64,000 nt of DNA from positions 28,744 through 92,743 of IMG/VR virus record IMGVR_UViG_2791355405_000002; one strand, 5' to 3'. The DNA is from a virus (Duplodnaviria > Caudoviricetes). Below are positions 13,602 through 46,248 of this stretch, one piece after another. Numbering within the stretch: position 1 is the first letter of the stretch; each line of letters begins with the position of its first letter. The translations under genes and the position numbers were made by a program. The notes beneath the pieces are model-generated. The model was not told the DNA's origin, made no database searches, and saw only the letters and a program-made list of their open reading frames with translations.

Positions 13602-13859
13602 AGAGGGTTTAATTAAATCCTCTTCCGGGGTATCATAAAAGCATACGGAGCGCACCAACTCCGGGCGGTTCAGACCTTCGTGACGTTCCGTCACAGACCC
13701 ACCCGGAACAACTCCACAGAGACCGCCCCGGGGCTAACCCCCTGGCTCCGGGGCCTCAGCGACCTACGACGCACCAGCCGTGAGGCGAGTAAGCCACTGG
13801 CGGAAACACCAACACCGTGCGGGCGGATCGGGGTCGGGCGGCGGCCGTAAAACGCTGGA

Positions 13860-13955
13860 CGCGCGGTAGCTCAACTGGCTCAGAGCACAAGGACCCCGGC
13901 CCACCCCCGTGCCGGTAAGCCCTTGGAGATCCGGGTTCGAGACCCGGCCGCGCAC
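13860..13955 (+). ncRNA. tRNA-like RNA with extended anticodon arm and no canonical anticodon loop
   Basis: GCGCGG/CCGCGC acceptor, TA-GCTC..GAGC D arm, CAAGG/CCTTG stem enclosing 28 nt, CCGGG-TTCGAGA-CCCGG T arm. Confidence 0.75.
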
Positions 13956-14034
13956 CGGAGCCACGTACCACCGGCTCCCCTCCCTCGCTACCGGCGGCGG
14001 AGGAACAGGGATCAAAGGAACAAGGGATCACAGC

Positions 14035-14616
14035 ATGACGACTGCGACGCAGGCCGACCCGTTCGCCCCCAACCAGGCGGCGTTCACCCCCGGCCGGGCC
14101 AAGACGGCCACCGACTTCCTCATGGGCGGTGGGACCCTGTCCTGCCAGTTCCCGGCGAGGGGGACGGAGTACGCGGGCACCATCTCCGAGATGACCGTGG
14201 AGGTCCAGCGCGACTACGACGACCCGTCCAAGGTGCTCACCTGGAACGACGGGACAGCCCGTCAGCAGCTCCGGGTCGTCTTGGAGGGCACCGGCTACAC
14301 GAGGAAGTTCGACGGCGACACCGAGGAGTGGGTGGACGTCGAGGACGACGACGGCTCCCGCGCCCTGTACGTGAAGGGCCAGATGGCCAAGGCGTTCCGC
14401 GACGCGGTCCGCAAGGCCGGATCCAAGGAGCCCGAGGTTGGCGGGTACCTGAAGGTCACCTACGTCCGGAACGGGCAGAAGAAGCCCGGCAGCAAGGGCA
14501 AGCCGCCGAAGGAGTACACGGTGGAGTACCTGCCCCCGGCCAAGAACCCGAACCCGGCCGCACAGTTCCTCGCCGGCGGCGAGGGCGGCGAAGCCCCGAA
14601 CCCGTTCGGTGACTGA
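14035..14616 (+). CDS. Probable single-stranded DNA-binding protein
   Basis: Actinophage SSB-like pattern (GTI..VQRD..W.DG..RQQLRV), tail ending PF, located between exonuclease and RuvC. Confidence 0.65.
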   Translation: MTTATQADPFAPNQAAFTPGRAKTATDFLMGGGTLSCQFPARGTEYAGTISEMTVEVQRDYDDPSKVLTWNDGTARQQLRVVLEGTGYTRKFDGDTEEWVDVEDDDGSRALYVKGQMAKAFRDAVRKAGSKEPEVGGYLKVTYVRNGQKKPGSKGKPPKEYTVEYLPPAKNPNPAAQFLAGGEGGEAPNPFGD

Positions 14617-16871: not shown

Positions 16872-17513
16872 ATGCCCCGCATGACCGTTGCCGTCGTCGT
16901 CCCCACCATCCCCGGGCGCGAGGCGATGCTGGAGCGCGCACTGGCGTCCGTACGCGCGCAGCGGCGCCGGCCGGACCAGGTCGTCGTCGAACGGGACTCC
17001 CTGCGCACCGGGGCGGACCAGGCGCGTAACCGGGCGCTGGAGCGGGTCACCACGGACGTGGTTGCCTGGCTGGACGATGACGACGAGCTGAAGCCGAACC
17101 ACCTCATGGCCTGCATGCGCGTGATGGAGCAGTCATCCGAGAAGCCGGACCTGGTGTACCCGGCGCCGGTGGTGCGCGGCGGCGAGGATCCCACGGCCGT
17201 GTCCGTTCAGGGCAGATGGGTGCTCCCGTGGGGCGTCCGCTTCGGACCGGAGCAGGAGACCCATCTGCGCCGGTTCGGGTCGTTCATCCCGATGACTCAC
17301 GTTGTGCGGACCGAGCGGGTCCGGGCCATCGGCGGATTCCGCCCTGGCGAAGAAGTGACGACAGAAGGCCTAGGCCGCCGCTACCGTGGCGAAGACGAGG
17401 ATTATCTGGTGCGTCTGCTTGACATAGGGGCCACATTCGAGCACTTGAGTGCTCGGACGTGGGTCTGGCACGTGCACCGTGGGAACACCGCCGGGCGAGC
17501 GCTCGCCAGGTAG
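16872..17513 (+). CDS. Glycosyltransferase family 2
   Basis: VVVPT..R..L.RALASV..Q, ARN.AL, WLDDDD, EDEDY. Confidence 0.88.
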   Translation: MPRMTVAVVVPTIPGREAMLERALASVRAQRRRPDQVVVERDSLRTGADQARNRALERVTTDVVAWLDDDDELKPNHLMACMRVMEQSSEKPDLVYPAPVVRGGEDPTAVSVQGRWVLPWGVRFGPEQETHLRRFGSFIPMTHVVRTERVRAIGGFRPGEEVTTEGLGRRYRGEDEDYLVRLLDIGATFEHLSARTWVWHVHRGNTAGRALAR

Positions 17514-23983: not shown

Positions 23984-24409
23984 GTGACCATGGAGATAGA
24001 GCGGAGGCATGCGCCGGTCACCGGCGAGCTGCTGGAGTACCTGCGGGCGAATCCGATGACGGCGGAGCCGGTCGGCGAGGGCGGCAAGCAGGAAGTCCAC
24101 GTCCACGTGCATCACCACTACGAGGCCCCGCCGGCCGTCCCCGCCGGGCACATCATGCACCAGGGCCCGGAGAAGACGGTGGCGGAGAAGGTGATCCCGT
24201 GGCTCTACACCGCGCTGGTCGCCTGCATCGTCCTGACCCTCTGTGCGGTGGCCCTCGCCACGGTGATGATCGTCGCCGTGGTGGTGCTGGCGGCGCTGGT
24301 GCTGCTCGGCCTGGTGGTCGCGCACATCATCAACTCCCACGCCGGCGCCGCAGAGGCGAAGGCCAAGGCCGAGGCGATGCTGGACAAGGGCAAGCACAAG
24401 AGGCGGTGA
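23984..24409 (+). CDS. Small membrane protein (SpdD-like)
   Basis: Long hydrophobic stretch; leader motif upstream; near the tra module. Confidence 0.6.
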   Translation: MTMEIERRHAPVTGELLEYLRANPMTAEPVGEGGKQEVHVHVHHHYEAPPAVPAGHIMHQGPEKTVAEKVIPWLYTALVACIVLTLCAVALATVMIVAVVVLAALVLLGLVVAHIINSHAGAAEAKAKAEAMLDKGKHKRR

Positions 24410-24474
24410 GGCTCATGGCACCGCCGACCCGGAGAACCCCGGACCCGACGAGGGCCGGGGTTCTTTGCGTTGCG

Positions 24475-24514
24475 GGGGTTGTGCTCCGTCCCGAGTGATG
24501 GTTTAATTAAATCA
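24475..24514 (+). promoter_or_regulatory. Conserved promoter/operator cassette
   Basis: GGGGGTTGT..GATGGTTTAATTAAATCA. Confidence 0.75.
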
Positions 24515-26014: not shown

Positions 26015-26410
26015 ATGACCGCAGCGAACCCCGCGCCCGTGCGGATCGTCTCCTTCGGCTACGGCCACGGCGACGCCCCGGCCGCCCACCTGACCCTGGA
26101 TCTGCGCCACCACTTCCGGGACCCGCACGTGCGCCCGGAGATGCGCGAGCTGACCGCTGTTCACCGCAAGGTGCGCCGCGCCGTCCTCGGCACCCCGGGC
26201 GTCAAGGCCCTGCTGACCGCCGCCGTGCGGATGGTCCAGGCGTACGACGCCGGGCCGTCTGCTCAGGGCACGGTCGTCGCGGTCGGCTGCGTCGGTGGCC
26301 GTCACCGCTCCGCAGTCGCGGCCGATGCCCTCGCGCGCCGACTGCGCCGGCGGGGCCATCGCGTGATCGTGGAGCACCGGGACCTGCACCGCCCCGTCAT
26401 CATCCGCTGA
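26015..26410 (+). CDS. Stand-alone RapZ C-terminal domain protein
   Basis: IVSFGYGHG, DLR..FRDPH, AVGCVGGRHRS. Confidence 0.82.
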   Translation: MTAANPAPVRIVSFGYGHGDAPAAHLTLDLRHHFRDPHVRPEMRELTAVHRKVRRAVLGTPGVKALLTAAVRMVQAYDAGPSAQGTVVAVGCVGGRHRSAVAADALARRLRRRGHRVIVEHRDLHRPVIIR

Positions 26411-37483: not shown

Positions 37484-37573
37484 GGGGTTGTCCGCTCGTG
37501 AAATCCTTGGTTTAATTAAATCAGTCCGGGGTGCTTCCGGACTGACCAAGGAATCAGGAACGAGGAACCGACC
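37484..37573 (+). promoter_or_regulatory. Promoter/operator plus leader cassette
   Basis: GGGGTTGT..TGGTTTAATTAAATCA..GACCAAGGAA..GAGGAACCGACC. Confidence 0.8.
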
Positions 37574-39711: not shown

Positions 39712-39744
39712 CCCGTACGACGATCAAGGAACGAGGAACCGACC

Positions 39745-40491: not shown

Positions 40492-40528
40492 GTGGCCGGA
40501 CGGACCGGCCGGAAACGAGGAACCGACC

Positions 40529-42591: not shown

Positions 42592-42692
42592 GGGCCTATA
42601 GCTCAGTCAGGCAGAGCACCCGTAGAGCGCGAGCCTTGGTCGGTTCCCACGCGCTCCGGGAGACCCCGGTTCGAATCCGGGCGGGCCCGCCA
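42592..42692 (+). ncRNA. tRNA-like RNA with encoded CCA and an extended anticodon arm displaying CCUUGGUCGGUUCC
   Basis: GGGCCTA/CGGGCCC acceptor, GCTC/GAGC D stem, CCCG-TA-GAGCGCG...CGCGCTC-CGGG arm, CCCGG-TTCGAAT-CCGGG T arm, G-CCA end. Confidence 0.82.
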
Positions 42693-46177: not shown

Positions 46178-46248
46178 GCTCCCGTGGGATAACGGATGTC
46201 CGTCGGGCCCTCAACCCGGAAGTGCCGGATCGTGACCGGCCGGGAGCA
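46178..46248 (+). tRNA. Atypical tRNA-Glu(CTC)-like gene
   Basis: All four stems pair (GCTCCCG/CGGGAGC, GGAT/GTCC, TCGGG/CCCGG, GCCGG/CCGGC); loop CC-CTC-AA has C33; T loop is ATCGTGA. Confidence 0.65.

What the first reader, a model, noticed from the sequence alone, without database searches (positions are those of the whole stretch)
13860..13955. Second tRNA-like RNA with an extended anticodon arm and an initiator-like C1:A72 mismatch
Seen: same design as 42592, with D and T arms intact and a CAAGG/CCTTG stem enclosing 28 nt, including an inner CCGGC/GCCGG hairpin with loop CCACCCCCGT. There is no encoded CCA. Position 1:72 is C:A, which is the established hallmark of bacterial initiator tRNA. 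Two independent copies of this architecture argue for a functional class rather than decay. I found no repeated target for this loop by eye; it loosely resembles the 16S anti-Shine-Dalgarno (CACCUCC). Other possible roles are a decoy for anticodon nucleases or a processing signal for the downstream SSB mRNA.
Basis: partly seen in the sequence, partly recalled or inferred. Interest (0 to 1): 0.75.

Follow-up and report, generated by a model that had tools for sequence, protein, structure and literature searches.

The report
Non-decoding tRNA-shaped RNA in phage-plasmid leader
A family of about 95-kb Streptomyces phage-plasmids keeps, in the untranslated leader of an early gene, an RNA that has every part of a transfer RNA except a usable anticodon; it cannot read codons and is most likely a cutting signal for the host's tRNA-processing enzymes, possibly with a second job for its C-rich tip.

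Summary
Window 13860-13955 (+) folds as a tRNA with a 6-bp acceptor stem under a C1:A72 mismatch. D and T arms and all elbow nucleotides are canonical, and no CCA is encoded. The anticodon arm is lengthened to about 38 nt and ends in a CCCC(C)G loop.

I found 10 further distinct members, plus one variant with a replaced body, in 92-99-kb Streptomyces phage-plasmids, always in the same conserved leader. The arm is kept by compensatory changes, and 98.8% of cells are paired. The tRNA body is nearly invariant, although the downstream protein is only 35-45% identical.

It is not a decoding tRNA. Default ARAGORN and Rfam tRNA miss it. Intron-mode ARAGORN gives a different anticodon in most homologues. 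It is not an initiator either, because only the 1:72 mismatch fits.

Distant relatives of the downstream gene have real tRNAs (Leu-UAA, Asn-GUU) just upstream of it.

Unlike the second element at 42592, the loop has no repeated complementary target.

Best reading, about 0.5: a tRNA-derived RNase P/Z processing module of an early transcript. The role of the C-rich tip is open.

This scan had already met the same family on other genomes and read it the same way. I found no published description.

The parts
13606..13619 (+). Palindromic AT-rich box TTTAATTAAATC, the likely early promoter/operator that starts this transcription unit
   Evidence: The motif (up to 1 mismatch) lies at 18 places in the window against 0 expected, mostly just upstream of + strand early genes. 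It is conserved at the head of the leader in all family members. Promoter function is inferred; the sigma-70 consensus scan found nothing.
13650..13859 (+). Upstream structured leader domain. It includes hairpin GTGAC..GTCAC, the C-rich-loop hairpin 13725-13754, the long-range helix MGACC/GGUCK, and the invariant 22 nt 13837-13858 (GGCGGCGGCCGTAAAACGCTGG) next to the tRNA-like 5' end
   Evidence: Alignment of 11 leaders and RNAalifold give 40 pairs, 5 with changes on both sides, including A:U to C:G at the MGACC/GGUCK helix (alignment).
13860..13868 (+). Position 1 (C, unpaired opposite A72), acceptor 5' strand GCGCGG 13861-13866, then U8 A9
   Evidence: The 6 acceptor pairs are invariant in 11 members. 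Position 1 is C or A, never paired with A72.
13869..13887 (+). D arm GCTC / AACTGGCTCA / GAGC (A14, G18 G19, A21 present), then position 26
   Evidence: The D stem is invariant. L037 tolerates a 15-nt hairpin inserted in the D loop.
13888..13925 (+). Extended 'anticodon' arm. Outer stem CAAGG 13888-13892 / CCTTG 13921-13925; internal loop ACC / TAAGC; inner stem CCGG 13896-13899 / CCGG 13912-13915; apical C-rich loop 13900-13911 (CCCACCCCCGTG, possibly CAC/GTG closing a CCCC tetraloop)
   Evidence: All 5 outer-stem pairs and 1 inner-stem pair show changes on both sides. Arm length is 26-44 nt in homologues and the tip holds a C run: CCCC(C)G in 9 of 11, CCCG in L042 and L072.
13926..13947 (+). 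Variable region GAGAT (U48 can pair with A15), then T arm CCGGG / TTCGAGA / CCCGG
   Evidence: The T loop is a canonical T54-T55-C56-R57-A58. The T stem has one pair changed on both sides (C:G to A:U in L053) and U:G variants.
13948..13955 (+). Acceptor 3' strand CCGCGC, A72 (mismatched), discriminator C73; no CCA follows (CGG)
   Evidence: 'CCGCGCAC' is invariant in all members and in the replaced-body variant L055.
13957..13978 (+). Trailer hairpin GGAGCC-loop-GGCTCC, starting 2 nt after the discriminator
   Evidence: The 6-bp stem is invariant in 11 sequences while the loop varies. A role as the 5' hairpin of the processed mRNA is inferred.
13985..13997 (+). Second trailer hairpin TCGCT / GGCGG
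   Evidence: RNAalifold shows 2 pairs changed on both sides.
14035..14616 (+). Downstream early gene (193 aa, PHROG 1911, unknown function, possibly an OB-fold ssDNA-binding protein); likely ribosome site AAGGGA 14022-14027
   Evidence: phrog_1911 at E 1.9e-38; no Pfam family. The AlphaFold2 model (pLDDT 61) gives only weak OB-fold matches. There are two protein types, only 35-45% identical, behind the same leader.

Best explanation
The element is a tRNA-derived module that no longer decodes. It is built into the roughly 400-nt leader of an early transcription unit of a linear Streptomyces phage-plasmid.

Proposed mechanism:
1. Transcription starts at the AT-rich palindromic box at 13606-13619.
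2. The RNA folds into an upstream structured domain, the L-shaped tRNA-like body, and two trailer hairpins.
3. Host RNase P cuts 5' of C13860. A 3' tRNA-processing nuclease (RNase Z type, since no CCA is encoded) cuts after C13955.
4. This removes the upstream leader domain from the message of the downstream OB-fold-like protein. The message is left with a hairpin-capped 5' end, and a roughly 96-nt tRNA-shaped RNA is released.
5. That RNA cannot be used by the ribosome. Its 1:72 mismatch would also keep it away from elongation factor Tu.

The lengthened arm is kept as a helix with a C-run tip. This points to a second job for the tip, either a short G-rich pairing partner or a protein. That job is not identified.

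Shown here: structure, conservation, absence of an anticodon, and position in the leader. Inferred from how these enzymes recognise substrates by shape: all cleavage steps and their consequences.
For: 1. tRNA shape with every elbow nucleotide is present: U8, A14, G18G19, T54-T55-C56, A58, G53:C61.
2. There are 11 distinct members, with 98.8% of cells paired and 7 pairs changed on both sides.
3. The body is 89% identical in nucleotides and the arm 65%. The upstream exonuclease is 67-84% identical in amino acids and the downstream protein only 35-45%. Selection therefore acts on the RNA itself.
4. No conserved anticodon exists. Intron-mode ARAGORN calls Gly-ccc, Leu-cag, Arg-ccg, Cys-gca, Gly-gcc or Leu-aag in near-identical homologues.
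5. In distant relatives of the downstream gene, ARAGORN calls tRNAs just upstream of it: Leu-UAA ending 40 nt before the start (L067), Asn-GUU 80 nt before (L095), and a looser Met-CAU nt before (L133). Other anticodon-less tRNA-likes sit there in L094, L103 and L105.
6. In the closest relative (L055, contig G301), the D and anticodon arms are replaced by an unrelated hairpin. The acceptor stem, a T-arm-like hairpin and both flanks are kept. What remains matches what I recall to be the minimal RNase P substrate (acceptor stem plus T arm).
7. All three tRNA-shaped genes of the element (13860, 42592, and tRNA-Glu at 46178) lie inside + strand early gene runs. Their excision must therefore cut messages.
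8. tRNA-like structures acting as RNase P/Z signals at mRNA ends have precedent in plant-mitochondrial t-elements (PMC1920247). RNase P substrates other than tRNA, including the phage P1/P7 C4 RNA precursor, are reviewed in PMC4919922.
Against:
- As I recall, a bare processing signal does not need a D arm or an anticodon arm. Here the D arm is invariant, the long arm is kept by compensatory changes, and a C run sits at the tip in all 11 cloverleaf members (CCCC(C)G in 9). Processing alone does not explain this.
- The 22 nt before the element and the hairpin after it are invariant. Shape recognition does not require that either.
- Cluster K mycobacteriophages carry the homologous gene with no tRNA-like element upstream. 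The gene does not need such a signal in general.
Confidence: 0.5

Rival explanations
1. It is a trans-acting small RNA on a natural tRNA scaffold. The tRNA body provides excision and stability, and the long arm displays a C-rich seed that pairs with G-rich sites (for example G-rich ribosome-binding sites of host or late phage messages), as the C-rich loops of actinobacterial 6C RNA do.
For: - A C run at the tip is the only conserved sequence feature of an otherwise fast-changing arm.
- A second C-rich loop hairpin lies in the same leader at 13725-13754.
- 6C sRNA binds mRNAs through C-rich loops without a chaperone in high-GC Gram-positives (PMC6486639).
- The sister element at 42592 has a tip complementary to GGAACCGACC/GACCAAGG. 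This tag lies in front of many early genes: GAGGAACCGACC occurs 12 times against 0.65 expected. A 'display arm' design therefore exists in this genome.
Against: - No enriched complement exists in the element's own genome: 13 matches against 17.4 expected.
- A duplex-energy scan of the whole 92.7-kb contig gave 1580 windows at or below -17 kcal/mol, with none of the best at translation starts.
- The seed would be only 4-6 nt.
- L072 and L042 have altered tips, and L055 has lost the arm altogether.
- Host targets were not tested.
Confidence: 0.2
2. It is a cis-acting operator or protein-binding platform. The tRNA-like body and the C-rich loops of the leader are bound by a protein that sets translation or decay of the message, as T4 gp32 does on its own leader. 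Candidates are the downstream OB-fold-like protein and the phage's stand-alone RapZ C-terminal-domain protein at 26015-26410.
For: - The flanks and the body are invariant at the sequence level, beyond what structure needs.
- The downstream protein gives weak OB-fold matches.
- The phage encodes a RapZ_C RNA-binding-domain protein (PF22740, E 3e-26).
Against: - The same leader sits in front of two protein types only 35-45% identical, which argues against a co-evolved autoregulatory pair.
- No binding data exist, and the fold assignment is weak.
Confidence: 0.1
3. It is a tRNA look-alike that soaks up a host factor which recognises tRNA bodies or acceptor ends, for example a defence toxin that modifies or cuts tRNA 3' ends, or a tRNA-modifying enzyme.
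For: - The elbow and acceptor stem are intact and nearly invariant.
- The conserved 1:72 mismatch plus C73 recurs in unrelated tRNA-likes: L103 has C:A, L105 has A:G, and the G443 locus L138 has G:A.
Against: - There is no anticodon-loop mimic, so it cannot be a decoy for anticodon nucleases.
- No defence or counter-defence gene context points to it.
- L055 has lost the elbow yet keeps the site.
Confidence: 0.08
4. It is part of an RNA-based replication or copy-number control region of the phage-plasmid, like ColE1 RNA II/I or the noncoding-RNA origins of extrachromosomal mycobacteriophage prophages.
For: - A 400-nt conserved, highly structured non-coding tract lies among replication genes: primase-polymerase, helicase, exonuclease and an SSB-like gene.
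- RNA-based prophage origins exist in actinophages (PMC7157519).
Against: - The tract begins with the same box as 17 other early units and runs straight into a gene with a ribosome site.
- The element has its own primase-polymerase.
- Nothing in PMC7157519 mentions tRNA-like structure; the term 'tRNA' occurs 0 times.
Confidence: 0.05
5. It is a real decoding tRNA whose insert is removed (an intron), or a tRNA pseudogene in decay.
For: - ARAGORN with introns allowed gives a call.
- Real tRNAs occupy the same slot in distant relatives.
- In plasmid NZ_CP041606.1, locus tag RS00750 is missing from the CDS-only table exactly here, so NCBI's PGAP annotation pipeline may have called an RNA gene or a pseudogene.
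Against: - The implied anticodon and intron position differ between homologues.
- 20-30 nt is far too short for a group I intron, and I saw no bulge-helix-bulge motif.
- No splicing or RNA-ligase gene appeared among the 29 proteins scanned.
- Decay is excluded by the invariant body and the compensatory changes.
Confidence: 0.04

Closest known systems
Plant-mitochondrial t-elements and the mitochondrial tRNA-punctuation principle (Forner et al. 2007, PMC1920247)
   Same: Both are tRNA-like structures lying next to protein-coding sequence in a longer transcript. Both lack decoding ability and are thought to be cut by RNase P and RNase Z to make mRNA ends.
   Different: This element is bacterial and phage-borne. 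It keeps a complete, canonical D arm and elbow. It also has a selected, lengthened anticodon arm with a conserved C-run tip, which t-elements do not need. No ends have been mapped here.
C4 antisense RNA of phages P1/P7 (Rfam RF01695; precursor cut by RNase P, Hartmann et al. 1995, as cited in PMC4919922)
   Same: As I recall, C4 is also a small structured RNA of a phage-plasmid made from the leader of the operon it belongs to. Only its RNase P dependence was checked here, through the citation in PMC4919922.
   Different: As I recall, C4 acts through loops complementary to sites in its own mRNA. No such complement was found for this loop. There is no Rfam match. The sister element at 42592 fits C4 better.
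6C RNA of Actinobacteria (Rfam RF01066; PMC6486639)
   Same: Both are from high-GC Gram-positive settings and show hairpin loops made of C runs. The leader here has two such loops.
   Different: There is no sequence or model match, and 6C has no tRNA body. The pairing function of the loop here is untested.
mascRNA / MEN-beta tRNA-like RNAs (Rfam RF01684)
   Same: Both are tRNA-like modules embedded in a longer transcript and cut out by tRNA-processing enzymes without decoding.
   Different: Those are eukaryotic. The match is only 15.2 bits against a gathering score of 42.5 (E 2.4), so this is an analogy, not membership.
Engineered 'tRNA scaffold' RNAs (Ponchon and Dardel design; from my own knowledge) and phage T4 stable RNAs species 1 and 2
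   Same: A tRNA body keeps its acceptor, D and T arms while the anticodon arm is replaced by another hairpin. The body provides processing and stability.
   Different: The first is a laboratory design. The T4 RNAs are of unknown function, and I did not compare sequences.

Membership tests
Canonical decoding tRNA (Rfam RF00005) | Model score at or above the gathering score (29 bits), or a call by a standard tRNA finder | tested here: not met
   There is no RF00005 match at gathering or at E<=10 on 13700-14100. Default ARAGORN makes no call.
Canonical decoding tRNA (Rfam RF00005) | 5-bp anticodon stem with a 7-nt loop (U33, purine 37) and an anticodon conserved among orthologues | tested here: not met
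   The arm is 26-44 nt, and the shortest form is a 9-bp stem with an 8-nt loop (L042). The implied anticodon differs between most homologues.
Canonical decoding tRNA (Rfam RF00005) | Acceptor, D and T arms with the tertiary-contact nucleotides | tested here: met
   U8, A14, G18G19, A21, T54-T55-C56-R57-A58 and G53:C61 can all be read in the sequence. The helices are 100% paired across members.
Bacterial initiator tRNA | Unpaired 1:72 | tested here: met
   C1:A72 here. The family shows C:A or A:A, never a pair. The host initiator has C1:U72.
Bacterial initiator tRNA | CAU anticodon, three consecutive G:C pairs at the base of the anticodon stem, and A11:U24 | tested here: not met
   There is no CAU loop. 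The outer stem is CAAGG/CCTTG and 11:24 is C:G. The host initiator shows all three marks.
Intron-bearing tRNA (group I or bulge-helix-bulge type) | An intron at a fixed site that leaves a canonical anticodon loop, with a group I core or a bulge-helix-bulge motif | tested here: not met
   ARAGORN puts the intron at positions 33-42 with lengths of 7-30 nt, and the anticodon differs between most homologues. The insert is too short for a group I core. The internal loop is 3x5 nt, not a bulge-helix-bulge.
tmRNA | tRNA-like domain plus a tag reading frame | tested here: not met
   ARAGORN finds no tmRNA in the window, and there is no Rfam match.
tRNA-like processing signal (t-element kind) | Acceptor-stem/T-arm stack embedded in a longer transcript beside a coding region | tested here: met
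   The element lies between the early box at 13606 and the gene at 14035, with no terminator-like site on the + strand. The acceptor stem and a T-like hairpin are kept even in the replaced-body variant L055.
tRNA-like processing signal (t-element kind) | RNA ends that map to the borders of the element and depend on RNase P/Z | not testable with these tools
C4-type antisense RNA (RF01695) | Loop(s) complementary to a site in the target message; model match | tested here: not met
   There is no Rfam match. The loop complement is not enriched and no target lies in the downstream leader.
6C RNA (RF01066) | Model match; two hairpins with C-run loops | tested here: inconclusive
   There is no model match at E<=10. 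C-run loops are present at 13900-13911 and in hairpin 13725-13754.

The most novel reading that the evidence does not exclude
These phage-plasmids use tRNA bodies as natural display scaffolds for regulatory hairpins. The host's tRNA enzymes cut out and stabilise the RNA, and the exchangeable 'anticodon' arm carries the working part.

In the sister element at 42592, the arm tip is antisense to the private tag in front of the early genes. In this element, the tip is a C-run seed aimed at G-rich sites or at a protein. The conserved 1:72 mismatch plus C73 would serve to keep the RNA out of translation.

This would make a new class of tRNA-scaffolded regulators in actinobacterial mobile elements.
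Probability: 0.22. Interest if true: 0.75.

Novelty: new variant of a known kind. Interest (0 to 1): 0.55.

Why it matters
If the reading is right, temperate phage-plasmids of Streptomyces have turned a tRNA gene into a fixed part of an early leader, so that host tRNA enzymes shape phage messages. That would be the mitochondrial 'tRNA punctuation' idea in a bacterial virus.

The selected long arm with a C-run tip hints at a further, unknown use of the tRNA shape.

Practical points:
- tRNA finders either miss these genes or, with introns allowed, give them false amino-acid identities. Annotation of phage tRNA sets is affected.
- The element is a natural counterpart of the engineered tRNA scaffold used to express RNAs.
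- It gives a testable case of RNase P acting on mRNA leaders in Actinobacteria.

Tried and rejected
1. Close DNA relatives. There were none in the GenBank phage set and only chance-level fragments in 300 family genomes. Homologues were reached through flank patterns instead.

2. Loop pairing with the conserved G-rich segment 20-50 nt upstream of the element.
   - It looked promising by eye: GGAUGG with CAUCC in L036, GGGUGG with CACCC in L048/L053, and 7-bp matches in L037 and L042.
   - The own-versus-cross duplex matrix gave -15.8 against -14.6 kcal/mol.
   - The same CACCCC loops occur with both upstream types.
   - Part of that segment is instead in a covarying helix, MGACC/GGUCK. Rejected as unsupported.

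3. Loop as a guide against the element's own genes. There is no enrichment and no hit at a translation start in a whole-contig duplex scan.

4. attP / integration-site reading. The longest match to any of the 79 host tRNAs is 16 nt.

5. Parent tRNA. No host tRNA stands out. tRNA-Asn is a weak best match.

6. Function of the downstream protein.
   - No Pfam family and nothing in the PDB by sequence.
   - The Foldseek hits are weak and all OB-fold.

7. Other copies. R1 finds only this copy in the 9.1-Mb assembly. In 150 other Streptomyces genomes it gives one weak hit, a different odd tRNA-like.

8. Tools that were not available.
   - PMC41593 is not held.

9. Literature. Five full-text searches found no description of this family.

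Full report
WHAT IS THERE

The window is the last 64 kb of a 92,743-bp contig (C551) in a 9.1-Mb, 69% G+C assembly. The contig is a phage-like extrachromosomal element. It carries a fused primase/family-A polymerase, a helicase, an exonuclease, glycosyltransferases and C5-methylases.

Its relatives are whole 92-99-kb contigs with direct terminal repeats in IMG/VR and in Streptomyces assemblies. One is the complete linear plasmid pS1D4-14.2 of Streptomyces sp. S1D4-14.

- C1, acceptor GCGCGG, U8 A9.
- D arm GCTC/AACTGGCTCA/GAGC.
- An arm made of CAAGG/CCTTG, an internal loop, CCGG(C)/(G)CCGG and the loop CCACCCCCGT.
- GAGAT, then T arm CCGGG/TTCGAGA/CCCGG.
- CCGCGC, A72, C73, then CGG (no CCA).

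All nucleotides that build the tRNA elbow are present. The minimum-energy fold is this cloverleaf, but the energy alone is unremarkable (z = -1.8).

IS IT MORE THAN CHANCE?

The answer is yes, by comparison. The 16-mer in front of the element, and a longer pattern, recovered homologues in IMG/VR, one metagenome contig and three Streptomyces genomes. A profile search with the downstream protein added L072.

A covariance model (R1) scores 11 distinct members at 56-115 bits. On their alignment:
- 98.8% of cells are standard pairs.
- 7 of 24 pairs changed on both sides: all five pairs of the outer arm stem, one of the inner stem and one of the T stem.
- No shuffle out of 500 reaches the observed values, and sliding the partner by one column drops pairing to 43-47%.
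- The acceptor and D stems never vary, so they say nothing about structure but show strong sequence constraint.

Against the window, the tRNA body is 89% identical and the arm 65%. The exonuclease gene upstream is 67-84% identical in protein. The gene downstream is only 35-45% identical, except 88% in one relative. The RNA, with its invariant 22-nt 5' flank and its 3' hairpin, is thus the best-kept feature of this neighbourhood.

IT DOES NOT DECODE

- Default ARAGORN and Rfam's tRNA model miss it.
- The same program calls the homologues Leu-cag, Arg-ccg, Cys-gca, Gly-gcc and Leu-aag, with introns of 7-30 nt at different places.
- The 'CCGG' that it reads as part of an anticodon loop is a strand of a conserved helix.
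- Arm length runs from 26 nt (L042: 9-bp stem, 8-nt loop) to 44 nt (L037). L037 also has a hairpin inserted in the D loop.
- The only conserved sequence in the arm is a C run at the tip: CCCC(C)G in 9 of the 11, often as CAC-CCCC-GUG, and CCCG in L042 and L072.

THE INITIATOR IDEA

The 1:72 position is always unpaired. It is C:A in nine cloverleaf members, and A:A in two and in the L055 variant.

That is the only initiator mark. There is no CAU, no G:C triplet in the arm, and 11:24 is C:G. The host's own initiator shows all of these marks and has C1:U72.

An unpaired 1:72 followed by C73 recurs in unrelated anticodon-less tRNA-likes: L103, L105, and a Streptomyces locus L138 with a 4-nt 'anticodon' loop. 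This is worth remembering. From textbook knowledge, it would keep such an RNA off elongation factor Tu. I could not test that.

CONTEXT

The leader begins at a palindromic box, TTTAATTAAATC. This box occurs at 18 places in the window against none expected, mostly in front of + strand early genes.

Between the box and the element lies a roughly 210-nt structured domain with covarying helices and another C-run loop. After the element come two hairpins, then the gene for a 193-aa PHROG-1911 protein. Its AlphaFold2 model gives only weak OB-fold matches.

Among 71 more distant loci that encode this protein family:
- Three have tRNAs called by ARAGORN within about 240 nt upstream of the gene. They are Leu-UAA (ending 40 nt before the start), Asn-GUU (80 nt) and a looser Met-CAU call.
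- Three have other tRNA-likes without a normal anticodon loop: L094 with a long arm, L103 and L105.
- Cluster K mycobacteriophages have none.

The slot is therefore an old home of tRNA genes, and the element is best seen as a tRNA that was remodelled and then kept.

In the window's closest relative (L055, contig G301), the D and anticodon arms are replaced by an unrelated hairpin and the T loop is altered. The acceptor stem, a T-like hairpin and both flanks are untouched. What survives there matches, from memory, the minimal substrate of RNase P.

THE LOOP HAS NO VISIBLE TARGET

- Its complement is not enriched: 13 matches against 17.4 expected.
- A duplex scan of the whole contig gave no hit at a start codon among the best.
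- The apparent pairing with a G-rich stretch upstream does not hold up as co-variation.

The second tRNA-shaped element (42592-42692) is different. It has G1:C72, an encoded CCA and an Rfam tRNA score of 43 bits. Its tip, CCUUGGUCGGUUCC, is antisense to the tag GACCAAGG...GGAACCGACC in front of many early genes (GAGGAACCGACC: 12 matches against 0.65 expected).

Both elements occur together in all five complete relatives I could search. They are not copies of each other, because R1 scores the second below ordinary tRNAs.

HOW IT MOST LIKELY WORKS

An L-shaped RNA with a normal acceptor/T-arm stack inside a longer transcript will be taken by RNase P. Without an encoded CCA, it will be taken by a 3' tRNA-processing nuclease of the RNase Z type. 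This follows from established knowledge of shape recognition by these enzymes and is not shown here.

The cuts would free the upstream leader domain, a roughly 96-nt tRNA-shaped RNA, and an mRNA that begins with a hairpin. The precedents are the t-elements of plant mitochondria (PMC1920247) and non-tRNA RNase P substrates, including the P1/P7 C4 RNA precursor (PMC4919922).

I give this reading about 0.5. What it leaves unexplained is the selected long arm with its C-run tip, the invariant D arm and the invariant flanks. These point to an added function of the excised RNA or of the leader: a 6C-like pairing seed (PMC6486639) or a protein site.

The rivals and their odds are listed in their own section.

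NOVELTY

I found no paper describing this family, and Rfam has no model for it.

This scan had already noted the same family on at least five other genomes. Two follow-ups (e1-3667446, e1-5842068) reached the same 'non-decoding module, probably a cutting signal' reading. That is not independent evidence.

- real tRNAs upstream of the homologous gene in distant relatives;
- the replaced-body variant;
- the inconsistent intron-mode anticodon calls;
- the contrast in conservation with the two flanking genes;
- the negative tests for a loop target.

I class it as a new variant of a known kind (tRNA-like processing or mimic modules) with moderate interest.

Noticed in passing
window 42592-42692 (+), and the tags in front of + strand early genes such as 37562-37573, 39733-39744 and 40517-40528: This is a second tRNA-shaped RNA with G1:C72, an encoded CCA and a 34-nt insert. 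Its arm tip CCUUGGUCGGUUCC is antisense to the tag GACCAAGG...GAGGAACCGACC that sits directly before many early start codons (12 matches against 0.65 expected). It is conserved in all 5 complete relatives searched.
   Followed up: partly
window, 18 places, e.g. 1950, 10380, 13606, 24500, 28684, 32789, 37509, 40477, 45817: The palindromic AT-rich box TTTAATTAAATC (0 expected by chance) marks the heads of early transcription units. It is probably the element's own promoter or repressor operator.
   Followed up: partly
window 26015-26410 (+): A stand-alone 131-aa protein matches the RapZ C-terminal (RNA-binding) domain (PF22740, E 3e-26). It is a candidate partner for the element's many structured RNAs.
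   Followed up: no
window 24393-24486 (+): A strongly structured 94-nt stretch (-52.8 kcal/mol, z = -4.1, 0 of 200 shuffles as good) ends just before the box at 24500. It is a weak R1 hit (19.4 bits).
   Followed up: no
window 14035-14616 and homologues (L036-L072): The gene behind the conserved leader comes in two protein types only 35-45% identical. The window and L055 share one type (88%), while the leader is about 85% identical in DNA. A mosaic joint therefore lies just inside the gene.
   Followed up: partly
L138:1310-1871 (Streptomyces genome G443, contig 2): Three tRNA-shaped genes lie behind a TTGACA...TATTCT promoter. The middle one (1501-1568) has a normal body, a 5-bp stem with a 4-nt loop instead of an anticodon loop, G1:A72 and C73. 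The first gene also has C1:A72 followed by C73.
   Followed up: partly
L094:1177-1267, L103:1225-1292, L105:1282-1352: Other, unrelated tRNA-like RNAs without a normal anticodon loop lie upstream of distant homologues of the same gene. L094 has a long two-part arm. L103 has C1:A72 and C73. L105 has a 6-nt loop and A1:G72.
   Followed up: partly
L065 (NZ_CP041606.1, record 17037-17450): In the complete plasmid pS1D4-14.2, locus tag FNV66_RS00750 is missing from the CDS-only table exactly where the element lies. The RefSeq record may therefore carry an RNA or pseudogene call there.
   Followed up: no
L037:9344-9454 (= L063): This member has a 15-nt hairpin inserted in its D loop as well as the longest arm (44 nt, CCCC tetraloop). 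The D loop therefore tolerates insertions.
   Followed up: no
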